Assembly: GCF_025526975.1 (NCBI RefSeq)
Contig: NW_026515674.1
Coordinates: forward strand, 620,001 to 684,000
Length of the DNA stretch: 64,000 nucleotides
Reading direction: 5' to 3'
From: Fimicolochytrium jonesii
Lineage: Eukaryota
Shown here: positions 6,002 through 63,331 of the stretch, one piece after another
How positions within the stretch are numbered: position 1 is the stretch's first letter
Layout of the letters: every line of letters begins with the position of its first letter
Notes under the pieces: generated by a model
Databases searched by the model: none
The model's input: the letters and a program-made list of their open reading frames with translations, nothing else
What the model was told of the DNA's origin: nothing
Translations under genes and position numbers: made by a program

Positions 6002-6580
6002 AACCGAAAATGATGTAGCTTAGGGTCATGTGGCCAAACAGCCCGGCCTTCCGTCTCCCGTCCGACGAGCGACCCGTGGACTTTCAATGAGGTCCTCGCG
6101 CTCAGACTTGGACTTTCTCTAGTAGGCTGTTACCCATTTGATGAGGCTTTCTAGCGTCGGTGTGCGGCGGCCTTGCATATGTACTTAATGGCATTGAACG
6201 GGGTGATTCGTTCGCATAGTTTCTTGCATCCCGAGCTTACATATGTGAGCGTAGGACATCGTTGACTCTCACTCAGACGTTGGTTGCCCTGCTGCATACC
6301 TTTGGAACAGGGGTATTACACATGGCGTGCAGAATATGAGTTTTTTGGACGTTCACGAATCAGCACGTTCTCGAGATGAGACCCGTGAGCTACCTTGGGT
6401 GGGAGACGTTATAATCGCAATACGCGTTTACCGTGACCCAGACCTCGTTTTCTGCTTGTTGGTTTTCCCTGTACGGAAGTCCAGCAGAACCAGCTCTTTA
6501 TCGGCTATATCGACCGGAGTCCAAACGGCACGCATAGTCTCCTAGTAGTCTCAGAGCAGCGGGCTATTGATTGCTGAGGA

Positions 6581-8602
6581 ATGTCCTACCCAAGGCAACA
6601 AGTTCCTGCCTCTACTTTCCAGCCGGGCAACGACGCCACAGGAACCTCCTTCGCACAACTTCCTCTCGATGACCTCTTTCCCGCAGAATTCGATCCTTTG
6701 CTCCTCTACCCACCTTATCAAGAGAGCGCCATTCCCTATGGCGGGTACCAACCCAGCTTCGGTGGGGTTCACGACCCCACCAACGGTGTAATACACCAGC
6801 CGCCGACCCCAGAAAGGTCGCCCGCATTCATGTATTCGCGCATGCCCGACATTGCCTTAGCACCTACGATGATGAGTTATCCACCAACGCATGCTCAACC
6901 GTATTTGGTGTGGCTGCCTCCACCGGCGCACTACCAGCATGTGCCTTACCCACGCGCGGGTCCGGGATGGGCTGCGGCGGGTGGATGGAGAATGGTGCCG
7001 CGGTTCCCGCAGCACCAGCTTGCGTTTTTGAGGCCGGATTATGGTGGCCGGCCGCATGGTGTCGGCCCGCAATCGGGAGATGGAGCCGTGGCAGGGATCA
7101 GTCTACTGCATCGGGGGATGAATGGGTTTGACGGAGGGATTCGAGAGATGTCGCCTGTTGGGTATGATGCATTCCAAGGGCAGGCGTTGCGGGCGCAGGC
7201 AGGAGCAATGGTTCCTGTGGGATACATGGGGATGCACCCAGCGTATCCTGCCAGCTTTCATCAGCGCGTACCCGGGGATGCTTCCCTGAATCTCGATATC
7301 GACCACTTGGTGCAGCCTTCAAATTCGGGGCAGGAAGACCCCCAGCAGCTGCTAGACTACCTATCGCGACCGCAGCACAACAAAGCAGATCTGCCGTCCC
7401 CAGAATCGGAGAACCAGGCAGCGCTGGCAAATCCCATGTCTCCGGAAATGGACAACGAGATGCTCGAGATCCTCTCGGCCGTCTTGGGAGCTTCACCGAC
7501 GAAGTCTCCCGAGACGGAGGACACTTTCTTTGGGGCGGACTTGTTGATAGGTCAAGCAGAAAGCTCGGTGGCCGAGCCTGAGATCTCGTCCTTTGCGGCG
7601 GAGTTGTCGATGGGCCAAGTAGAACGTTCGGTGGCCGAGACTGAGACCCCGTTCGCTGCGACGGAGTCGTTCATACGCGAAGCAGAAACTTCGGCGAGTC
7701 AATCCGGCGGAGCAGCACCGAATGAGGATCAGACCGACGGTTCCGAGGAAGAACAGGGTGACACCTCCACAGGCGTCTCAGACACGGACGACACCGTGGA
7801 TGAGATGTTGATTTACGCAGGCGTCTCTGACCTGCACGAGAACCTGAACAACCTGGACGACCTGTTCGCAGACCCTTCAGGAGCAGAAGAGGACATCGAC
7901 CACGCATCAATCGGCGTCTCAGAAGCGCCCGAAAACAGCTCATCCAAACCGATCTCCAATTGGCATCAGAAGGAATATGGCAACGCCGAACTCCAAGTTC
8001 TCAAAAAGATGAAGGGTAAAACCAAAGCCGCGCTGGCGCAGATAATCAGGCAGGACCCGGACCCCGAAGACCACTCCGTCTGGAAAAAGAAGCTCCCAAC
8101 ATCCATCGGAGAGGTTCAGATGGTATACGTCGAGACGGGCGATCGATGCATCGACACGCTCAGCCGGGTTATGAGGCACGGCGAGAAGCACGCGGTGGAT
8201 ATACTCTCGGCTGCGTTGAACAGTTTGAAGTTTGATCTGGATAAGATGGGGATGGAGGAACGGAGGGTTGGGTTTGAGAGGTGGGATGCGATTTATGGGG
8301 GACAGTATTGGCGCCTGGTTGAGACGTATGAGGGTGATGATGAGGACGGCGGTGGTGATTCGTCCCGCAAGAAACCGAGATTGCAGAACCAGCCACCCTC
8401 CACAACCCAATCGGCGCATCCGTCCCCGCACAACAACTCCCACCGCGCACAAACTCGACATCCCGTCTCACACGCCTTATCCTCCCAGCACCAGCGCCCG
8501 AAAGCAACGCGCGCACAGCCCAAGACGTACTTCGACTTCGAGGGGTACCTCGCCAAAATGGCAAATGACCTGTTGTTCAAGGCCCCATTTACGCAGGCGT
8601 AA
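6581..8602 (+). CDS. Hypothetical 673-aa low-complexity protein, intronless, with three internal 21-aa repeats
   Basis: Long uninterrupted ATG-initiated ORF; Pro-rich N-terminus, acidic middle, RKKPR NLS-like motif; no recognised domain. Confidence 0.6.
   Translation: MSYPRQQVPASTFQPGNDATGTSFAQLPLDDLFPAEFDPLLLYPPYQESAIPYGGYQPSFGGVHDPTNGVIHQPPTPERSPAFMYSRMPDIALAPTMMSYPPTHAQPYLVWLPPPAHYQHVPYPRAGPGWAAAGGWRMVPRFPQHQLAFLRPDYGGRPHGVGPQSGDGAVAGISLLHRGMNGFDGGIREMSPVGYDAFQGQALRAQAGAMVPVGYMGMHPAYPASFHQRVPGDASLNLDIDHLVQPSNSGQEDPQQLLDYLSRPQHNKADLPSPESENQAALANPMSPEMDNEMLEILSAVLGASPTKSPETEDTFFGADLLIGQAESSVAEPEISSFAAELSMGQVERSVAETETPFAATESFIREAETSASQSGGAAPNEDQTDGSEEEQGDTSTGVSDTDDTVDEMLIYAGVSDLHENLNNLDDLFADPSGAEEDIDHASIGVSEAPENSSSKPISNWHQKEYGNAELQVLKKMKGKTKAALAQIIRQDPDPEDHSVWKKKLPTSIGEVQMVYVETGDRCIDTLSRVMRHGEKHAVDILSAALNSLKFDLDKMGMEERRVGFERWDAIYGGQYWRLVETYEGDDEDGGGDSSRKKPRLQNQPPSTTQSAHPSPHNNSHRAQTRHPVSHALSSQHQRPKATRAQPKTYFDFEGYLAKMANDLLFKAPFTQA
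7511..7699 (+). repeat. Three degenerate 63-bp tandem repeats (in frame)
   Basis: ETEDTFFGADLLIGQAESSVA / EPEISSFAAELSMGQVERSVA / ETETPFAATESFIREAETSAS; DNA tcggtggccgag recurs at 63-nt spacing. Confidence 0.8.
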
Positions 8603-15972: not shown

Positions 15973-16938
15973 TTACTCCACCCCAATCTTTCCGGCACTA
16001 CCAAACTTAAAGATTTTTCCAAACCGGAAATCCGTTTTCTTTAGCGCTTGCGTGATGTCTGCCACGGCAACATTCTGATAAAGAAACACAGTGTCAGTGA
16101 AGGCCATCAATCGAGAAGCAAGAACAGTGCCGTCGTCCCTTACCGCAGCTTCTTTCATGCCCAATTTCCCTAATGACGGCCGTTTTTCGTTCTTCCCGGC
16201 CCCAAGTTCCGCTAAACACCACAACTCCACCACCCCACTCGGCCCCAGCTGCTGCATATCACCAGTGCACGCAACAACTTCGTCCGAGACGCCCGCCCAC
16301 ACGTCAGGTGTCCCGGCTATCATCCAACGGTCACACTCGTCGAGATTCCGTCGGGATTTCGTGATGCTGAACGTGAGCGTATGCCGTTTCTCTAGAGCAT
16401 TTAGATAGGGTCTGAATTGTGGGCATCGTCTGATCAGATTGCAAAGTTCCGCGATAGGCGTGTGGTGCGGCCCTTGCGTAAGCGTTATGTAGGCTTGTGG
16501 TGGCTCGGTGGCGGCACGGTGGCCTGGGAGGTCGTCCGGGAAGACCAGCAGCTCAACGTATACTACGGTTGGTGTTGGCGGTGGATGGATAGTATTTGAC
16601 GAAATGCTGGTTGCGTGAGGCAATGAGGTCCGTCGAGGCTGGGGTTCGGATGCGAATCCTGCTGGCGGCGGGGTAGGCAATGAGGATTTGTGGGCGGACC
16701 GGCGTGACCGTGGTCGCTCGGTAGATGGCGGCATCTGCGACGATGGAGGCCTCGGTAATGGCTGGACGGCGCGACCCTCAGGAGGTCTTTGATCGCTTTG
16801 CTTTGCCGCTTCCGGAGCTCGATATGCCGGGGTGGAATTATATCTTGAGGTATCTTCGTTAGTTGCGATCATGTTTGTGCATGGGATGATGGGTAAGCCA
16901 GCGAATGCGCAAACATAGGAGCCTAACTGCTGGGTCAT
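15973..16938 (-). CDS. Hypothetical intronless protein (~320 aa), Pro-rich N-half and globular C-half
   Basis: 336-aa ORF; start codon uncertain; no recognised motif. Confidence 0.5.
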   Translation of the reverse strand: MTQQLGSYVCAFAGLPIIPCTNMIATNEDTSRYNSTPAYRAPEAAKQSDQRPPEGRAVQPLPRPPSSQMPPSTERPRSRRSAHKSSLPTPPPAGFASEPQPRRTSLPHATSISSNTIHPPPTPTVVYVELLVFPDDLPGHRAATEPPQAYITLTQGPHHTPIAELCNLIRRCPQFRPYLNALEKRHTLTFSITKSRRNLDECDRWMIAGTPDVWAGVSDEVVACTGDMQQLGPSGVVELWCLAELGAGKNEKRPSLGKLGMKEAAVRDDGTVLASRLMAFTDTVFLYQNVAVADITQALKKTDFRFGKIFKFGSAGKIGVE

Positions 16939-17579
16939 TTGTTCTGGGAGCACCATGTGAGGGATCTTCGTTCCTCTTTCCAAATGTCGGAGTTGTTGTC
17001 GGATCTTGTTTGCCGTGCGAGGTGAGATCGTCGAGAGCAGGAGTCACGAATTTGAATTCAGTGACGAAAGTGCGTAGCCCTGCTCTTCACTGCCCCTCTT
17101 CTCTCGAACAGGGGATGTCTTCTAATCATGGACTTCCTCTTCCTATTGCAAGTGTATTTTAGTTTAGCGCATTCCTAAAACGGAAGGCTAGAACGGTTTG
17201 GCGGTAAAAGGTGTGTGTTCTCAGAATGGAGCCTGTCAAACAAAGAGAAAGCGACAGCGCGAATAGCAATGACATAGAGAGCATAGGGATCCACCAAACA
17301 GAAAAACACGGTGCTCTGAGTCTTTTTGCATGTGGGGCGGCGATGAGGAATCTCTTTCCCAAGTGAACAGTCGTGCTCTCCGGATCTATGGATTCTCTCT
17401 TGAAGAGCACCGCCAACGAGGAAAAAAACACAGCAATCCGTCACTCAACGGCTTCTGGCCTGGTAGCCATAATCTGATCTCTTACTGAGAGGAAAATATC
17501 AATAGACTGTTGACTACCTCAATATCTAGGAGACCTGCGGACAACTGCTGAGCACTTTCACCACCGAACACTTACGAAG

Positions 17580-31130: not shown

Positions 31131-31548
31131 TTGGACACACTGGCGGGGTTTGAATTTTTAATTACGGATTAGGGAACTCTCAGGTGGTGAAATGCGCTGC
31201 GCCGCTCGAGCTAGGACATAGAGAGAATTGATGCTGCGACCGGCTCTCCGAAGCGCAACAATATGAATTGAATTTAGACTTCTGCAAGGTCCTCGTTGCT
31301 GTGGGGTACTGGAGGATTCCCGTTTGCGACCTCTTCCGAGCAACCGACATTTGACGTGTTTCCCATAAACTTCGTGACGGCGAAATCAGCACCATGAGCC
31401 GTCACGTGAGGGAAATTCAATGCCATTTTTGGCAGGAGGCACAGAATTTGACAGCGCGTCCCCTTTCTGGAGGCCCGTCAGCGTCTGACATAAGCTTTTC
31501 CCCCACAAACCCGCTCTGTGAATCCCCATAGCGAGTCTCCACGGAAGG

Positions 31549-32724
31549 GTGAGACACCAAATAAGGGTAAAGCTTATGGACCCCCACAGGGAATGTCCGG
31601 GATTTCGAAAAGGAAGACGTATGAAACACGAACCACTTGGAGGTGACAGCAACCAAGTTTCCTCAAAAGCCGCAAACTCGTCGCGGCGTTCTGAGCACGG
31701 GAAAAGCCCAACTTCTGTGCCCTGCGAAATCAACTTTGCAGGCATAATGAGCACCTTGACTGAACCGGCCACAATGTTGAGCGTAGATCAATCGGCTACG
31801 ATCTCACCTTTTGTCAGATCGCATACACCACCTCTCGTCGATTTGCCTATGCAACCAACAACGAAGTCACCATCAACAAGGATATCCGCAGTGCCACATA
31901 CGCATTCCACCACTACGAACCCCAAAATCGCCACACTCCTCAGCCTCCCGCCCGAAACCCTCACCCAAATCGCGCTCCTCACCTCTATCCCAACCCTCTC
32001 GGCACTCCGTCTCACCCACCGCTACCTCGCTCGTGCCCTCCCAACACCGCAACACCTCCTCAACATCGAGCTCACGCACCTGCTCACGACCTACACCCCC
32101 GACGAAGCGCTGGGCCGCGCCGTCATCCGCGGGAGCTATCTGGCCAACATCAAGTGGGGCGCGGTAGCGGATATCGGTCACGAAGCACATGTGAGGCTCG
32201 TTGCGGGCGTGTTGAGGCGCGGGGCGAGGTGGACTAGGGCTTTCGTGTATGTCTGGGGTCGTGGGGCCAGGGAGGTTGGAGGCGAAAGTGAGGAAACAGC
32301 GAATGAGTATGGTGTCGGGACCGCTCAGCTGGCGCCTGCGGTCGAGGGAAACGTGTTGGCGGGCATTCTGGGCGTAGATTTCGAGGCCGAAGCGGAGGGT
32401 CGTGGCGGCGGCATCACGGAGGTACTCGATGCGGCGGGGGTTGCGGACCGGCATCTACTGTGGCAGATCGCGAGGGAGTCGTCGCCCTGCAGTGGCTCTA
32501 TCGCGCGACCGATCCCACCAAGTGATCCGACGCTGTATGGATTGTGGTTGTGGGAGGTGCAGGTGGTTGTGATTAGGCGCTGGTGCAAGATCTTTGGTGA
32601 GAGGGGCGATGCCGAGATGGTTCGCACTTTCATTCCTGCGCTTGGCTTGTTCGAAGTTGCCGCGTTGAGCAGATGTGCCGAGGTGGTGGGTGAGGCGCAT
32701 CGGATGTGGTCGAAAGCTAGGTGA
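31549..32724 (+). CDS. F-box-like protein, intronless; true start may be ATG 31747
   Basis: TLLSLPPETLTQIALLTSIPTLSALRLTHRYL fits the F-box pattern. Confidence 0.6.
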   Translation: MRHQIRVKLMDPHRECPGFRKGRRMKHEPLGGDSNQVSSKAANSSRRSEHGKSPTSVPCEINFAGIMSTLTEPATMLSVDQSATISPFVRSHTPPLVDLPMQPTTKSPSTRISAVPHTHSTTTNPKIATLLSLPPETLTQIALLTSIPTLSALRLTHRYLARALPTPQHLLNIELTHLLTTYTPDEALGRAVIRGSYLANIKWGAVADIGHEAHVRLVAGVLRRGARWTRAFVYVWGRGAREVGGESEETANEYGVGTAQLAPAVEGNVLAGILGVDFEAEAEGRGGGITEVLDAAGVADRHLLWQIARESSPCSGSIARPIPPSDPTLYGLWLWEVQVVVIRRWCKIFGERGDAEMVRTFIPALGLFEVAALSRCAEVVGEAHRMWSKAR

Positions 32725-47390: not shown

Positions 47391-48791
47391 ATGTCCTCAC
47401 GAAAAGCCAAGTCGGGGAACGCCCTGACCGCCAAAGAGCAGACGGTACTCGATCGAATCAGGCAGCATCCTAAGGTACGTGGTCCAGAGGTGGCTGGTTA
47501 GTGTTTGCTGGTCTTTTCAACAGGCGAAAACTAACGTTTCGTGACTCGGTCTGTGGTTAGGGTATCGACCAAGATGCTCTGAGGAACGAACTTGAAGGGT
47601 GGGAGGCCAACGAAATCTTGGAGCACTTGAACTCACTCAGCTCGAAGGTGTGTTATCCTGCGCAAGAAACGGTGAAGTGCGGTGAAGAGAGCACACAGCT
47701 AAAAGTGTTCTCCACTTGTCTCAGCAATATGTCGACTTCATGGCGATGACAAAGACTGGAAAGCTTGCTGTGAAAGCTCGCTCAAATGAAGAGGCTACAA
47801 TGTAGGAGGCGCTCCGCCCTCTCCGAGCTGCAGGATTCCGCTAAATTTCTTCTCTTCTGCTCGCCATGCAGAGCGGGCGGTATGAAAGACGAGGAACGCA
47901 TCATCTACCGACTCGTTAAAGATGCAAAGAACAATGGAATATGGCTCAAACAGCTCAAGGATCGCTCCGGATTGCACACACAACTTGCCAATACGGTGAT
48001 CAAGAATCTGGAGAAAAAGAATATCATTAAATGGGTCAAACCGGTTAAGGTCTGTTGTCTAAGTGCTTCCTTTTGATTCTGATGGCTCTATTGATAAATC
48101 CATCCCGGCGCAGACTCCACATAAGAAGGTTTATATGCTATACGAGCTGGAACCTTCAACGGAACTGACAGGAGGAGCGTGGTATACAGACAACGAGATG
48201 GATATGGACTTCATCGAACAACTGTCCAAGCAGGTTCATAAATATATCGTTATGAAGGTATGCCTCCCAGTGCATTGTCGATCACCTTCCTATCCACTCA
48301 GATTAACGTCGCCCGTAATGCCTTCACAGAGCTATCCACCAAAAAACAAAGACGCCGTATACCCAGCAAGTCATTCCAACTACCCCACCGCATCCGCCAT
48401 CCACAAGTTCATCACGCAATCCGGGCTTACAACCGTTCCTCTTTCCGTCGCCGACGTCCAGGCCCTCCTCGACCGACTCTACTACGACGGCAAAGTGACG
48501 CGCCTGCAGAAAACTGGATATGCCACCAGCGAAGAGGAGGAATCCGCAGGCGAAGAAGAAGAGGTGATGGATCTTGATGATGATGACGATTTCAGGGGCG
48601 GCAAGGAGACGGTCCGTGATCTGCAGCATCATGCGTGGATGTATAAGGCTATTGGCGGAGCGGCCATCGAGGAGCGGAATGCGTGGACGGATATGCCTTG
48701 TGGGCGGTGCCCTGTGTTTGATTTCTGCACTGAGTCGGGGCCGGTCAATCCTTCGAAGTGTGTGTACTTCAAGGATTGGTTGGCCTTATGA
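47391..48791 (+). CDS. RPC34: RNA polymerase III subunit C34 (RPC6/POLR3F)
   Basis: NNGIWLKQLK, KKVYMLYELEPSTELTGGAWY, LLDRLYYDGKV, PCGRCPVFDFC..NPSKC Fe-S motif. Confidence 0.93.
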
Positions 48792-49031
48792 CGAAAGCGT
48801 ATTCGAGTAGGTACTGTAGGTCAGATCGGAAGTGTGCCCGATGGTACCCCGCGAGCTTGAGGCAGCTCCATTGTCACAACTGCGGGGTCGATTCCTTCAT
48901 AATTTAAGTGATCGCATTTTGTATATACGAAAGCATTAGATGGTCTTAGATACCCCAGATTCTCCAAGACTGTGGCTCGAGTGCAAGTGTGACAGACTGA
49001 CAGTGCAAATCTTGCGAATGTCAAATGCGGG

Positions 49032-49894
49032 GTGAGCATCTTGGGTGAGCTGACGATTCCCGAGGACAAGTGCAAGGGTTACCAGCAGCTAATTGGTGAT
49101 GTTGACGAGCTGACCGTGCAAAACACTGCAAACCCCGCGGCCGAGCTGAACACTCCCTTGCCGTTCTTCTTTTGCCAGTCGTGGGGCCAGGCGCTCCCCA
49201 TCGTCTCGCTCATGTTCCACGAGGTGCGTATCAACTTCCAGCTTGCCACCTTCAACGAGCTCGTCATTACTGGAAACGGTATTCCGATTGCCAACCCGCC
49301 TAGCCTTGTGAATGTTGACCTGTTCATGACCTACGTCTACCTCGACGGTGTTGAGCGCAAGGTCTTTGCCCAATCGAGCCACGAGTACCTCGTGCAGCTG
49401 TGGCAGTACACTGGCACCGAGTCTGTTGCCTCTAGCAACCCCAAGATCAAGCTGACGTTCGCTCACCCGGCCAAGGAGATTATTTACCCGGCCAGTAAAG
49501 TGGCCAATGTTGACAACTATGCGAACAGACACTTTGACTACACTGATTCGGGAACTTCCGGAGACCACTACAACGGCAACGACCCGGTTGTTTCCGCCAA
49601 GCTCCTACTGAACACCACCGAGCGTCTGTCGGAACGCAGCTCGGCCTTCTTCTCGACGCTGCAGCCGTACTGGCACCACACCCGCTGCCCCGCACGTGGA
49701 ATCGGGCTGTACTCCTTTGCGCTCAACCCTGAGGCCCTGCAGCCCAGTGGCAGTTGTAACTTTTCGCGCCTGGAGAACGTCTCTCGCTCAACTTTTCTCT
49801 CGGCACTGGTACCGCCGCTGTCACCTTCTATATCATGGCCCGAGTGTACAACGTATTACGTGTGTCGGGCTTGGGTGGTTTGGCCTACGCCTCA
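49032..49894 (+). pseudogene. NCLDV double-jelly-roll major capsid protein, 5'-truncated and frameshifted
   Basis: ELT..K..GYQQLIG, PLPFFFCQSWGQALPIVSLMFHEVRINF, YVYLDGVERKVFAQSSHEYLVQLWQYTG, FAHPAKEI, YSFALNPEALQPSGSCNFSRLEN; after a frameshift at ~49782: SLNFSLG..YNVLRVSGLGGLAYAS. Confidence 0.93.
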
Positions 49895-49941
49895 ACCAGG
49901 GATGTGGGCAACCATCCCTACGCCTCAACCAGGGATGTGGG
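49884..49941. repeat. 25-bp direct repeat (cctacgcctcaaccagggatgtggg) x2 with an 8-bp spacer
   Basis: Exact copies at 49884-49908 and 49917-49941. Confidence 0.95.
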
Positions 49942-50142
49942 ATTTGGTGAGGGAGACAAGAGCTTCCTGGATCTCAGCGGATTCGACAGCGCCATCGAGG
50001 TGTGCTAGATTGTTTGAAGGAATAAGGGACATGGCGTGTACATATGGGGTTGTAAGGGTAGTTTGGGCCCACCCGGTTGCGTTACTATGCTTCACTGATT
50101 AACGAAATTATTCATTGATGCAAAGTTTCTATTAACATCATA

Positions 50143-52013
50143 CTAAATCAGGGAGTATGCGGGGTCAAGCTCATCATGCTCGGCAAAGCGGCTCTTGGGA
50201 CATTCAACGATACGCAAGATGCGACCGTCTGCGAGCTTTGCGTTTCCGCCCGCCTTCATTCGGTCCTTAATGTACTTGCGATTCTTTTCCTTGCCCATGC
50301 GTTTCCTCAAGTCTGTAGCTGTGCTGGCTTTGGCTACGAGCTTCTCGCCATGGTAGACGAGATAGGCGGGCTTTGCGTTGTTGTACATGGCCGGGAACTG
50401 GTCGTGCGCCGTGCTTTCTAGCTGATCAGCCGCGTCCGCCTCCACAAACTCGACAGGCCAGCGACTCTGTAATGTTTTTTTGACGACTTGTTCCCTAATG
50501 GCCTCGCAATTTCGCTGAAGACATTCTGCAAGCACAGCTACACTCGCATATTTCGCGAGCACCGTGCGGTCTGCTCGCGAGTCCGCTGGCGAGTCAGAAT
50601 ATACGACTAGCACCGGAGGGCCTGGGCGCTTCAGCACGACTGGTCCAGGGTCATCATCGAGCACAATACGCTTGATAGAGGCTAACTTCAAGTCAACAAG
50701 GGCATCAAACTCCTCTGACGCGGTTACCTCGCCTGAATATATGTTGAACTCTGATGCCACCAGCTTCTGTATGACCCATCGCTCATTCAGACAGTAGCGG
50801 CTCCCCGCAAAGCTCTGCAGCTTGGTGTGAAGGGCCGCCTTTGGTATTCCTAGACCAATCGCTAGCTCCTTGAAGCCGGCAAAAGTGCGGACGACTCGAC
50901 GAGAAAACCATACCACTGCGCATGATGTCGAAGCCGACCGGTGCTAGGCTCGCGGGCTTTATCAATGCCGTTTTCGCGGGCGGTATCACGCGGCTCTGGT
51001 GTAGGCTGTCGAGTAGATACAAGAGCGCCGTCTAGATTCTCGTTAAAAACCGATGAGACTTTCCATGCGTGTGCATACAGCGCTGGCAGCTGCATGTCCA
51101 GCTCAATACGGTTGCATTTCCAGCAGCACAGTTTCACGTTCTCTTCGTCGTTGTACAATAGTGTAGGGTTAACTCGGTCCGAACCACACATGCCGACCGC
51201 CTCGCACAGGTAGCATTCACCGGTCTGTTTTTGGAACGACTCGACGCCCGCCTTGCGCCCGCCAACCGATGGTCGTCCAGCGTTCACAAAGTTGCTGTTG
51301 ATCACAGCATCCATATCGAGCTCGGCGTCAGGCGTGTGCCTCCTTCGCACCGCATTAATCTGACACATCTGCCACACGTACTCCTCGGGTAATAACGTCC
51401 CCTTGAGAATGTTATCGAGATGGCACGCCGGTACGACATTGTTTTCAGAGTAACCCAGCCTGCTGTTCAGACGGTCGAGCCCGTTGAGTCAATCGCCCGC
51501 GTCTGGGAGAGCATCGCAGTAATGACACGCCTGTCCGATGAGCGTAAGCAGCGTGGCATCGTCTGTGAATGAGATGCGGCGGCTATCCGCTGATCGCTTG
51601 ATAGCTTTGAATCTATCGGCGACGGTGGTGCGCCGTTTGGTGTTGTACTGCGCGACGGCTTCAGGGTGCATTAACCGAAATCGCGCCTGGTCAAGCGCGT
51701 ACGTTTCGAGATATCCAGTCGGATCGAGCTCACGCTTGCGTTGGCGAAACGTCTCGTAATACTTTCGCGCGTTGAAGCAAACCTTACACTCGCTGGCCCA
51801 TCTATACTCGCTCCATCGAAATGCACCTCGTTCAAACGGCTTGTCGCACGTGCTGCACGGCTTTCCAGGGGTCTCGTTTCGATCCGCTGTGAGAGCCCGC
51901 TCAGCGTTTTGTGCGCGCCGTTGCGTGTTGTACGCGGTTTTGCACATATCTTGATTCTTTACGCGCTGATCGGCATCGTGCTCAACGTCACAGGCGACGC
52001 AGAGAAAACCCAT
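50143..52013 (-). pseudogene. Viral-type endonuclease-like gene: Zn fingers, two CxxC/HNH-like modules and three NUMOD1-like HTH repeats; one in-frame stop and one frameshift
   Basis: CHYCD..*LNGLDRLNSRLGYSENNVVPACHLDNILKG (TGA at 51491-51489; both flanking ORFs share a frame) and CYLCE..GSDRVNP..YNDEENVKLCCWKCN; frameshift ~50925-50945 into ORF 50143-50916. Confidence 0.75.
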
Positions 52014-52185
52014 CGGACCGCACCCGTTATATGCCCAATCCACAGCCCGCGAGGATATGTGATGATATCACTTGTCCGAATACCCAACCGCCCATCGAGC
52101 AGTCCCGCGAAACGATGTCGTTCAGTCGGCGTTAAGGGCGAATCCGCATCGGCAACAAAGTCGGTCGGTCCATTCTGCACGCAAC

Positions 52186-52635
52186 TCATCCGGCCAGAGG
52201 CACAGGTAGCGAGACGGTGGATCTGGTGCCGGCCGTTCTGTCATGAGTGTCGTTCAAAGCTTTGCGAAGCGTTTCCCAATCTTCATCGGTCAGGGTCTTT
52301 CGAAACTGAGCCAGCCGCTGAAGGCTCCGTTCTTGGAAGTAGGTTTTGGGACGACCGCTACTGTAGGTGCAGATCTTGACCTCGCTCGAAGCCTCACCCC
52401 AGGTATCACGGGAGGCCTGCACCACGCTCAGAGCTCTGATCAACTCCCTCGCGTCGAGAGAGACCCTGATATTTTCTTCGGCAATATCGTGGTCGGAGGA
52501 AGTGGCTACGTCGTCAGCGTTTTGCTGCGGCAATCGCCTTTGATTGTCGGGAGTGTTGAGGTCGAAAGAGAGATTCTGAGTGTTGATATGGAACGTTGAG
52601 TGGTTGCGTTCCGCAAACATTTCGTTGCTTTCCAT
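52186..52635 (-). CDS. Hypothetical 149-aa intronless ORF, viral or host origin unclear
   Basis: ATG-initiated ORF with a TATAAA-like element ~50 nt upstream; no motif recognised. Confidence 0.35.
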   Translation of the reverse strand: MESNEMFAERNHSTFHINTQNLSFDLNTPDNQRRLPQQNADDVATSSDHDIAEENIRVSLDARELIRALSVVQASRDTWGEASSEVKICTYSSGRPKTYFQERSLQRLAQFRKTLTDEDWETLRKALNDTHDRTAGTRSTVSLPVPLAG

Positions 52636-53052
52636 GCAAAAGGTTGAATTTGAGACAAGCGCAGTGTTGCCGAGTCCCGCGCTTTATAGCCGTCAAACAG
52701 ATTAAAAATTTCAGGGACACGTGAAACAATAGCACGTGGTCAGTGGAGCAACCGCACCTTTGACAGGTGACAAATTTGCGTTGCTTCAAATGATAAGGCC
52801 CTCCCCACCCGTTCTTCCTGTCAATTGGCATCCGCATAGGATCGCGGTTATCAGATCTGTGGGTCCTAGAATGTCATCATCGACTTGGGAGGTAAGACTT
52901 GGAAGGTAAGTGGGACCTAAAGGGATATCGAGCAGCAGGTGAAGATGAAGCCCCGGATCAGCTCAGAAGCGAGTAACGAATCAGCTACTCCGAGTAGCTT
53001 GTAGATAGGGTATTTGAGTGATTCGTCCGCCCCGTCCCATCCGGAAACGAAA

Positions 53053-54236
53053 ATGGAAGCACCAGACAGAGGCCACCTCAAAGCGGTCGTCCTCCAAGCC
53101 ATCGCAAAGGACTCTCAGAGCGAGCAGAGCGACGATATCTCGTTCCAACGAGCCATTCCCGCTGCTAGCTCCGAAGAAACCGCCGCGTCCTTAGAGCGCT
53201 TGTTGCAGTCCGATTTGAGTGTATTTTTGGGTGAGTTGTTCACATGCGCATGTTGGGCAGGCATAGTACGGCAGCAGCAACAAGACTACAGGGCGACCGC
53301 TTCTAACGTAGTCTGGGGCTCGTTCCACAGAAAAATATGGGAGATATCTCAGCAAGCAGGATTTAGCTCTTTTCGACCCATTTTCAGGTATGAGCCCCAG
53401 ATGCACATTGCTAATAACCATCGCAAAACTCATAGAGTTGTCCCCTTACAGAGAAGTACGAAGTCGCTCACTACCTCAGCCTCTACCGCACGCCCCTGCC
53501 CGCCATTACAACTACGCAACTACGCAACCGCCGCCTTGCTTACCTCACATCCCATCTTTCCCACACCGACTACTTTTCCCCCTCCAACCTGCGCACTCGG
53601 GCGCCGGAGCTCTACCACACCTACATTGGCCAGTATGAGGACGACTCGGGAGCCGCGTTCCCGGAGAGTATGGGGCTTGTGGATCGCATATATGAGAGCT
53701 GGGAGAAGGAGGTGGCGGGCGAGAGGGTGAGGAGGGAGCGGGAGGAGACGTTTGAGGAGTTTGATACGGAGAGCGAGGAGGATGGTGATGAGAGCGTCGA
53801 GGATGAGATGGAACCCGGGGGAGCCGATCCGTTACCACCGCCGGAACCAAGTGGGCCTGACGTCCCATCGAATCCGATGGCAGCGTCCACATTCACATCT
53901 ACGTCAGATTCAACAACGCCGCAAATATCCGAAGCTGAGAGGGAAGCCCTCGCGGCTGAGTTTACGGAAATTATGCGGCGGCGCTTCATTGACGGCAAAG
54001 ATGTGGGTTTTCTGTTCATCTGTACGGGCTTCTGCTATCTGCGCTAATGATCTTGTCGGTTGCAGTCGGATCACTTTGATTATTCGCCCGTAGACAGTAA
54101 TCCGGACTATGGCATGTTCTCAGCGGAAGCACGGCATGACCGCGACGAGGCGTATTTTGACGCCGACGATGACGACGGGGACGGGAATTCGATGGACCCC
54201 TTCCAATGCTTGAAGGAGGGGGAGTACGACTATTAA
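53053..54236 (+). CDS. CCDC97-like protein (DUF2052)
   Basis: LLQSDLSVFL..YG, LRNRRLAYL..DYFS..RAPELYHTYIGQY, EFTEIMRRRFIDGKD..FDYSPVDSNPDY; several introns. Confidence 0.85.
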
Positions 54237-61552: not shown

Positions 61553-62765
61553 TTACTCTGGTATGTCCAGGAGATCATGCAGCGCGTCGGCCAGCCCGTA
61601 GTCCGCAGCAACCTCGCGGGCCCGATATAACGGAATCCTGGAAACAACAGTCCACTTAGCCTCGGATCCGAACCCCGACAGCGCGAATTTGAAAAATTCA
61701 AACATACCAAGTTCCTTGATATTTCCCGTACCCGCCCTGAATCTTCTCATGTTCACCCTGATGCACCTCCCGTTCCAAAACCTTCGTCCTCCGGCTCTTT
61801 TCCATTCCCGCCGCTTTCAATATATGCGTAGCGTTAATCCACGAATCTGATTTCCGCCGCATTACTCCTACGCCATTCGGGGCCTCGAGTTCATAGACTC
61901 GGGTATTCGAGTAGGTCGCTTCGTATATCCCTTCGCGGGGGGGGTTGAAAGACGCGAGCTGGCGGGCCGGTAGCGACGGTGCGCCGCGACGGCTAGGGGT
62001 GGGGTTACTGCCAAACGTGCCGAAATTGCCTGGACTGTTGCCGCCGGTTGTGTAGTTATTGGAATTGCCGCGTGAGTATCCTCGCCGAATTGGGATAGGG
62101 AAGTTAGAGGGATTGAATGCTGGGACAGAGACGGCTGGATGCATGAACTGCTGCTGTGCGTATGGTGTTTGTGTTGTATATGGCATCGACGTATAAGCGT
62201 GGAGTTGGGGATTCGCATGTTGTGGGTGACCGGCCAACGTAGTTGGGTAGAAAGGTGCCTGCTGTAGCGCTGGCTGCTGATGCAGCTGATACTGAGTGGG
62301 AGGTACCGATATTGGATTGGCAGTTGAGTAATAGTTTTGCTGCAGCGGTGGCATCGTCAGTCCCCCAAGGTGGCTCAAGGCTAGCGCTGGGTAGTTAAGC
62401 TGTTGTGCCAATGAGGTCCCAGTCATCATCTGCGTCATTTCATGCGCTGCGCCTGACCGGACTGCGGGCGTCTGCGCTGAAAACGATGGCGCATTGACCG
62501 AGGACGTGCCTGCAGAAGGGACCTGCGTAACGTGTGGTGCAGCTGTCGGCATCGGAGCAAGCGCATATCGCGGATCTTTCCATGGCTCATATGGTGGGTG
62601 GGGCAGTGGAGGAACAAGGGCGGTTGGGTATACTGTCGGTGGTGTCGGTGGTCGTGCTGGAAGGAGAAGGAAGTCTTCCGAGGAACCGTCGTCGTTTTCG
62701 TCTCGCAAGATGTTGAGGTGAGGTTGAGGGGGTGGCAAAGGAAGGGAGACAGTTGCGGTAGCCAT
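61553..62765 (-). CDS. APSES/KilA-N DNA-binding protein (Mbp1/Swi4-type domain) at the C-terminus, no ankyrin repeats
   Basis: IYEATYSNTRVYE..VMRRKSDSWINATHILKAAG..RTKVLEREV..HEKIQGGYGKYQGTW|IPLYRAREVA; one intron ~61639-61705. Confidence 0.9.
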
Positions 62766-63331
62766 TTTGAAGAGTCCGAACTCTCCGCTGCGTTTTCAAC
62801 CGTCTCTAAGCTTGGAGCCACTGAAGCGGCGATCGATAACTCTGCTGTAATTGGGTAGCGGGATGTCCGCCGCTAAGCCAATTATCGTTTTGTAGTGAGG
62901 AGCCTATCAGTGAGAAAAGCCGACACGCATATGTAAGAGCGAAAGTGGTTTCTACCGAGTTCTCATGTTGGTCAGCAATGCGGCGGATTTTAAGAGTGCT
63001 GGTTCGATTCCCGACACTAGCAAAAACCCTCACGAAGGTGCAGCATCAACTTCAGCACAGCAGTAAAAAGGTCGGATTCTAGAGATTTCATAATAAAGTC
63101 ACTTTCTTCTGAAGCAAACCTCCTCCATCGCCGGTCGCACAATTGACGTTTGTGAAGCTCTGATGTTTTTGCAACATGATATGCTTTATTATTTTTCGTA
63201 TGTATATACAAAATTGTTGGCGACATGAAGTTGCTTCGTTGCCATACCCCAAAGGACCTTCCCAATGCTCCCACATGCGATCGAATCATTCCATATTGTT
63301 AAGCTAACTCTCCAGATTTTGGGACAGCGAT

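What the first reader, a model, noticed from the sequence alone, without database searches (positions are those of the whole stretch)
49032..50008. The capsid C-terminus is hidden in another frame by a 2-nt TC slippage, so the MCP can be reconstructed
The ORF track shows an unrelated tail after NFSRLENVS. Removing 2 nt from gtc-tc-tcg-ctc-aac (~49782-49783) restores ENVSLNFSLGTGTAAVTFYIMARVYNVLRVSGLGGLAYAS, matching the usual NCLDV MCP ending (YNVLRIMSGMGGLAYS). About 250 codons upstream have no stop, while the MCP N-terminal part (MxGGL..QL.AxG start) is absent. The few lesions suggest a young integration with a breakpoint inside the gene (inference).
Basis: partly seen in the sequence, partly recalled or inferred. 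Interest (0 to 1): 0.7.

Follow-up and report, generated by a model that had tools for sequence, protein, structure and literature searches.

The report
Dead giant-virus fragment in chytrid chromosome
This is a broken 3-kb scrap of giant-virus DNA (the back ends of a capsid gene and of a predicted nuclease gene) lodged among ordinary genes of what is likely a chytrid fungus; the frameshift is in the sequence, but the capsid cannot be rebuilt from it, and a capsid gene in this fungal species is already in print.

Summary
In detail: the capsid (MCP) frame changes at a TC run (49780-49785) that is one unit longer than in a close intact relative, and the downstream frame matches intact relatives to their stop codon. 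'Can be reconstructed' is overstated: residues 1-118 of ~433 are absent from the window, including six predicted strand elements. The insert is thus ~3 kb, cut inside a gene at the left end and probably at the right, with no duplicated target site. A public protein from this DNA is labelled Fimicolochytrium jonesii, and PMC13533422 already lists that species' MCP as a lone viral gene on a fungal contig. New here: it is a pseudogene, it is not alone, the public gene model is a chimera, and it sits in a tight clade of unnamed environmental MCPs with a C-terminal tail. Reads were unavailable, so assembly error at the TC is untested. Ordinary decayed endogenous viral element.

The parts
49032..49781 (+). 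MCP pseudogene, piece 1 (residues 119-~369 of intact relative P0001); no 5' end, first in-frame ATG only at 49212
   Evidence: 83% identity over 257 aa to P0001; Pfam Capsid_N and Capsid_NCLDV above cut-off; left boundary at about 49032-49038
49488..49505 (+). Six-codon altered patch in frame (PASKVA) where relatives keep a conserved Pro
   Evidence: three of the 16 private changes fall here
49780..49785 (+). TC run one unit longer than in the relative; the reading frame changes here
49784..50008 (+). MCP piece 2 in frame +2: last two predicted strands, LAYAS, clade-specific tail (FLDLS motif) and the native-position stop
   Evidence: model of P0001
49852..49861 (+). One codon fewer than in all 8 intact proteins aligned (between R and VSG)
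   Evidence: anchor distance 18 vs 21 nt
49884..49941 (+). Exact 25-nt direct repeat at 33-nt spacing (11 extra residues, in frame) in the tail
   Evidence: the only exact repeat of 18 nt or more at 20-60 nt spacing in the 64 kb
50009..50142 (.). AT-rich spacer (GC 39.6%) between the two convergent stop codons
50143..52013 (-). HNH/endonuclease-VII-like pseudogene in three pieces, matching residues ~349-900 of 965-981-aa relatives P0123/P0124
   Evidence: PHROG endonuclease VII E 1.6e-7; 50% identity over 376 aa to P0123; profile E 6e-61, 9e-57, 3e-17 for the three pieces
51489..51491 (-). In-frame TGA where P0123 has Arg
50885..50910 (-). Frame change with loss of a few codons in the nuclease-like gene
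47786..48791 (+). Left flank: host RNA polymerase III subunit Rpc34 (intron-containing), ending 240 bp before the insert
   Evidence: Pfam
52186..52683 (-). Right flank: unassigned 165-aa frame; makes the right boundary uncertain
   Evidence: no hit; best PHROG E 0.037
53436..54047 (+). First clearly host gene on the right (CCDC97-like)
   Evidence: Pfam E 1.3e-27

Best explanation
The region is a non-coding ~3-kb relic of giant-virus-type DNA, holding the 3' parts of two tail-to-tail genes, that was likely captured as a fragment in a chytrid chromosome and has likely decayed neutrally since. Shown: the MCP lacks residues 1-118 and changes frame at the TC run; the neighbour has a stop and a frame change; the flanks are fungal housekeeping genes. 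Inferred: the piece was joined in at a chromosome break (no integrase, no duplicated target site, left end inside a gene), had no promoter or start for the capsid from the outset, and the extra TC arose later by replication slippage because nothing selected against it. It makes no capsid.
For: Lesion placed at DNA level against L001. N-terminal 118 residues absent from all six frames of the window and the 240 bp upstream no more similar to the relative's 5' part than shuffles (246 of 300 shuffles score as high). In the model of intact P0001 (pLDDT 79.8; best solved matches PBCV-1 capsid) six strand elements lie in the missing part and the last two lie at or after the frame change. Independent lesions in the neighbour. 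The best intact relatives of the two genes, P0121 and P0123, each occur on one NCBI contig of 88,155 bp, which suggests a common viral source. Only 1 of 133 long frames in the window hits a viral hallmark family; the other 20 with hits are cellular families. No shared direct word of 5 nt or more between the two junction zones. End branch 0.15 versus 0.035 for its sister P0001 in a quick tree; relative-rate counts against P0001 31:5, 24:10, 23:10.
Against: No reads, so the TC gain could be an assembly error. The rate excess is not seen against P0004 (23:23, 27:17, 22:18) and in only 1 of 3 tests against P0003, so part of the branch length may be viral history. No CpG-decay signature (CG to TG/CA 9 of 61 one way, 8 of 53 the other). 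The two relatives being on the same contig rests on equal contig length, not on seeing the contig. More distant nuclease relatives have only 56-162 residues before the matched part, so the neighbour's 5' truncation is less sure. The 33-nt duplication lies in a tail that is also repetitive in P0001 and P0122 and could predate capture. Route of capture is not distinguishable from erosion of a larger provirus.
Confidence: 0.82

Rival explanations
1. Same dead relic, other route: a larger provirus integrated here and host deletions later cut it down to 3 kb, so both ends are deletion breakpoints.
For: Chytrid and Allomyces genomes carry large integrated giant-virus regions (PMC13533422 Results); stepwise erosion by mutation and recombination is proposed for Acanthamoeba (10.1101/2024.10.31.621330 abstract).
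Against: No other viral hallmark among 133 long frames; decay is shallow (about 1% per site), leaving little time for large deletions on both sides; the host Rpc34 gene ends 240 bp away.
Confidence: 0.3
2. The extra TC is an assembly or polishing error and the genomic MCP piece is open to its native stop; the element is still 5'-truncated.
For: Dinucleotide runs are a known site of sequencing error (general knowledge); no reads could be laid.
Against: Other lesions that are not of that type (in-frame TGA, codon loss, multi-codon loss with frame change) show the DNA is decaying; seven long host frames with Pfam hits total 10,572 nt without a break (a selected set, weak evidence).
Confidence: 0.1
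3. The fungus has domesticated the piece and expresses the annotated 371-aa protein (P0005), a capsid half-domain with a new tail.
For: A public gene model exists; pairwise dN/dS to L001 is 0.14.
Against: The model starts at an internal Met (49212), runs on in the wrong frame past the TC run, and its second exon (50149-50418) is the antisense strand of the neighbour gene; the dN/dS sums mostly viral history (dS 1.1); 16 private changes at 187 otherwise invariant columns, more than any intact relative (0-13).
Confidence: 0.03
4. Programmed -1 ribosomal frameshifting or editing joins the two frames in a working gene.
For: The two frames are offset by -1/+2 and overlap.
Against: No X XXY YYZ slippery heptamer in 49700-49830; intact relatives have one continuous frame; a -1 shift would add a residue that 6 of 6 close relatives lack; the 5' third of the gene is missing.
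Confidence: 0.01

Closest known systems
Lone MCP genes on fungal contigs of Fimicolochytrium jonesii, Podochytrium sp. and Gaertneriomyces semiglobifer (PMC13533422, Results)
   Same: The public protein P0005, labelled F. jonesii, matches this DNA letter for letter over about 282 aa; fungal gene context and host-like GC as the paper describes.
   Different: The paper calls MCP the only viral gene and leaves HGT or remnant open; here the MCP is truncated and frameshifted and has a second, broken virus-like neighbour. 'Frameshift' and 'pseudogen' occur 0 times in its main text.
Mycodnaviridae (Nucleocytoviricota of zoosporic fungi)
   Same: NCLDV-type MCP in a zoosporic fungus; 44% identity to a Gonapodya prolifera MCP.
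   Different: No polymerase, ATPase or integrase; 3 kb rather than 80-350 kb; the MCP falls in a separate tight clade (support 100, long stem) that does not include the Gonapodya protein.
PBCV-1 Vp54 double jelly-roll capsid protein
   Same: Sequence E 4e-32 for piece 1; fold of intact relative P0001, TM about 0.7.
   Different: About 30% identity; relatives carry an extra ~25-residue C-terminal tail of low model confidence; the window copy lacks the first part of the first barrel.

Membership tests
NCLDV major capsid protein | Capsid_N and Capsid_NCLDV profiles above cut-off | tested here: met
   58.3 bits (cut-off 24) and 133.1 bits (cut-off 34.8)
NCLDV major capsid protein | Double jelly-roll fold | tested here: met
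   On intact relative P0001, not on the window copy: Foldseek best hits PBCV-1 capsid, probability 1.0
NCLDV major capsid protein | Complete, continuous coding sequence | tested here: not met
   Residues 1-118 absent, frame change at 49780-49785
Endogenous viral element | Viral DNA contiguous with host genes | tested here: met
   Rpc34, CCDC97-like, Mak10 flanks; junction not checked with reads
Giant endogenous viral element / intact provirus | Many viral core genes over tens to hundreds of kb | tested here: not met
   1 viral hallmark hit among 133 long frames
Mycodnaviridae | Monophyly in a concatenated GVOG7 tree (3 or more of 7 markers) | not testable with these tools
   Only a partial MCP is present and no labelled Mycodnaviridae reference was held
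Mycodnaviridae | MCP grouping with fungal-virus MCPs | tested here: inconclusive
   Quick tree of 65 rows: window piece in a clade of five unnamed proteins, then P0006; Gonapodya MCP outside; no Allomyces reference identified
Integrase-mediated provirus or Polinton-like element | Integrase gene, terminal repeats, target-site duplication | tested here: not met
   No such Pfam hit, no matching terminal repeat, no shared direct word of 5 nt or more at the junction zones; right boundary uncertain
HNH / endonuclease VII-like nuclease (neighbour) | His-Me motif profile match | tested here: met
   PHROG endonuclease VII E 1.6e-7, two stretches; no Pfam family; activity untested
Programmed -1 frameshift | Slippery heptamer at the shift site | tested here: not met

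The most novel reading that the evidence does not exclude
The scrap is the only host label for an unnamed lineage of giant viruses (MCPs P0001-P0004, P0121, P0122; 78-84% identical to the window copy, marked by a C-terminal tail and a ~970-aa double-HNH gene) that infects spizellomycete chytrids today and lies outside the described Mycodnaviridae.
Probability: 0.35. Interest if true: 0.45.

Novelty: already known. Interest (0 to 1): 0.22.

Why it matters
Modestly. It settles an open remark in PMC13533422 for one species (remnant, not a functional transferred gene), shows that the public protein record is a chimera that can mislead MCP surveys, and ties a tight clade of environmental MCPs to a likely chytrid host. 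The frameshift itself is ordinary decay.

Tried and rejected
No whole genome was held, so paralogues and the missing 5' part elsewhere in the genome were not searched directly; among the best 120 protein hits only P0005 carried this species' name. No sequencing run was listed: no read or RNA test. Scans for related loci found nothing in viral contigs or genome contigs; metagenome contigs gave one close locus, L001, too short (1531 bp) for synteny, and 79 distant ones. Word-based protein searches for the neighbour (longer lengths) and for the 52186-52683 frame found nothing. The protein atlas gave no answer. Three look-ups of earlier findings were empty. The careful tree did not finish; the quick tree was used (P0005 and homologues under 340 aa left out). 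CpG-decay test negative. Composition does not mark the insert: GC 56.7% and 55.0% versus 52-58% in host exons, and 56.1% in L001, so similarity is native and not amelioration. A Mriyavirus or Polinton-like source was considered (passages) and not favoured: standard NCLDV profiles score high and no such gene is present. The KilA-N gene nearby does not contradict the paper, whose search covered viral genomes only. Supplements of PMC13533422: 6 of 10 files unreadable, 0 hits for the species in the rest; they may hold more on this locus.

Full report
Observation. Frame +3 is open from 48993 to 50102 and frame +2 from 49760 to 50008. The first matches Pfam Capsid_N (profile 102-207 of 207) and Capsid_NCLDV (1-147 of 196) and stops matching at NFSRLENV; PBCV-1 capsid chains are its best solved relatives. 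A protein search returned four intact relatives at 79-84% identity (P0001-P0004, 423-433 aa), then a drop to 54%. P0001 aligns to the window in two frames: residues 119-375 in +3 and 362-433 in +2. One relative was available as DNA (L001); the alignment shows a 2-nt gap exactly at the TC run 49780-49785, 30 versus 28 nt between anchors. All 6 of the 6 closest relatives aligned read ENVSLN without an extra residue, so a 2-nt gain is more parsimonious than a 1-nt loss. No slippery heptamer is present. The two pieces were compared with relatives separately.

The frame +2 piece continues past LAYAS into a tail with an FLDLS motif that 6 of 6 close relatives share and the two more distant ones (P0006, Gonapodya P0022) lack, so the stop at 50008 is at the native position. 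The piece has one codon fewer than all 8 intact rows before VSG, an exact 25-nt repeat at 33-nt spacing, the only such repeat in the window, and a six-codon altered patch at 49488-49505. Residues 1-118 are absent from all six frames; identity to L001 falls to background upstream of about 49035, and the 240 bp between Rpc34 and the capsid piece score no better than 246 of 300 shuffles. In a model of intact P0001 (mean pLDDT 79.8), whose best solved matches are PBCV-1 capsid chains and best predicted match a Terrestrivirus MCP, six strand elements lie in the missing part. The capsid cannot be recovered from this locus.

The second gene. On the minus strand, three frames (51492-52067, 50865-51488, 50146-50943) belong to one gene. 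The middle one matches phage endonuclease VII and HNH profiles. A search of 1.84 billion representatives gave 337 relatives at E up to 0.001, the best two of 981 and 965 aa. P0123 aligns at 50% over 376 residues from its residue 349, across an in-frame TGA at 51489-51491 where it has Arg; the third frame matches residues ~715-900 after a frame change near 50900. No piece matching the N-terminal ~340 residues was found, though more distant relatives have only 56-162 residues there. P0123 and the intact capsid relative P0121 each occur on one NCBI contig of 88,155 bp; I infer, without having seen the contig, that both genes come from one virus. The insert is therefore about 49032-52013, two genes tail to tail around an AT-rich spacer. 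The frame at 52186-52683 is unassigned, so the right edge is less sure.

Host and context. A public protein labelled Fimicolochytrium jonesii (P0005) matches this DNA letter for letter over about 282 residues and 89 of 90 in a second exon, so the window is likely from that chytrid species. That model starts at an internal Met, reads past the TC run in the wrong frame and splices to the antisense strand of the neighbour: a chimera. Of 133 frames of 125 aa or more, 21 have Pfam hits and only the capsid is a viral hallmark. No integrase, terminal repeat or target-site duplication was found.

Age and decay. One stop in 945 codons implies about 1% substitutions per site under neutrality (95% range 0.02-5.3%). 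In a quick tree of 65 rows the piece is sister to P0001 (support 84) with an end branch of 0.15 against 0.035, within a six-row clade of support 100. Relative-rate counts show an excess against P0001 and P0002 (6 of 6 tests p<0.05) but in only 1 of 6 tests against P0003 and P0004. It has 16 private changes at 187 otherwise invariant columns, versus 0-13 for intact relatives (P0002 and P0122 are identical there, so their zeros are by construction). No CpG-decay signal. 'Young' is compatible with this, but cannot be put in years.

Mechanism. Shown: broken coding frames, missing capsid 5' end, host flanks. Inferred: capture of a viral fragment at a chromosome break, then neutral decay including slippage at the TC run. 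Erosion of a larger provirus is the main alternative route; assembly error at the TC cannot be excluded because no run was listed, but it would not revive the gene.

Literature. PMC13533422 (seen: abstract, passages, first half of Results, Discussion; supplements 6 of 10 unreadable) names F. jonesii as one of three fungi where MCP was the only viral gene on a fungal contig, and leaves HGT or remnant open. 'Frameshift' and 'pseudogen' occur 0 times in its main text; in the preprint PMC12247965 (passages) 'truncat' and 'HNH' also occur 0 times. Three paper searches listed no paper on this locus's structure; the library lacks most subscription journals. 10.64898/2026.06.19.733378 (passages) notes Polinton-like viruses in chytrids; 10.1101/2024.10.31.621330 (abstract and outline) proposes integration, silencing and decay in Acanthamoeba; PMC10640383 was seen only as a listing.

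Verdict. A real but ordinary decayed endogenous viral fragment whose capsid gene is already reported for this species. Added value: pseudogene status, a second viral-type gene, a faulty public model, and a likely host for an unnamed MCP clade. Interest 0.22.

Noticed in passing
window 61698-62795 (-): KilA-N domain gene (27.3 bits, cut-off 23.8) 10 kb from the viral fragment; looks like the host Mbp1/Swi4-type factor (recalled label). Proximity is probably chance.
   Followed up: partly
window 49884-49941 and 49475-49505: The 8-nt spacer of the 33-nt duplication and the altered patch both contain short words that repeat nearby sequence directly or as reverse complement, as template-switch repair would leave; no chance test was run.
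   Followed up: no
window 52186-52873 (-): Unassigned frames (165 aa, and a Cys-containing 119-aa frame upstream) head to head with the CCDC97-like gene; no homologue or family found.
   Followed up: partly
P0005 vs window 49212-50418: The public gene model is a chimera of a capsid piece, a wrong-frame tail and the antisense strand of the neighbour gene.
   Followed up: yes
P0001-P0004, P0121, P0122: These MCPs carry a ~25-residue C-terminal tail with a predicted low-confidence helix (residues 424-432) absent from the Gonapodya MCP; role unknown.
   Followed up: partly
window 6578-8602 (+), 15973-17043 (-), 31522-32724 (+): Long open frames (674, 356, 400 aa) with no Pfam hit; not examined for origin.
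   Followed up: no
window 52882-52910: Short 14-nt tandem repeat, 2.1 copies, between the unassigned frame and the CCDC97-like gene.
   Followed up: no
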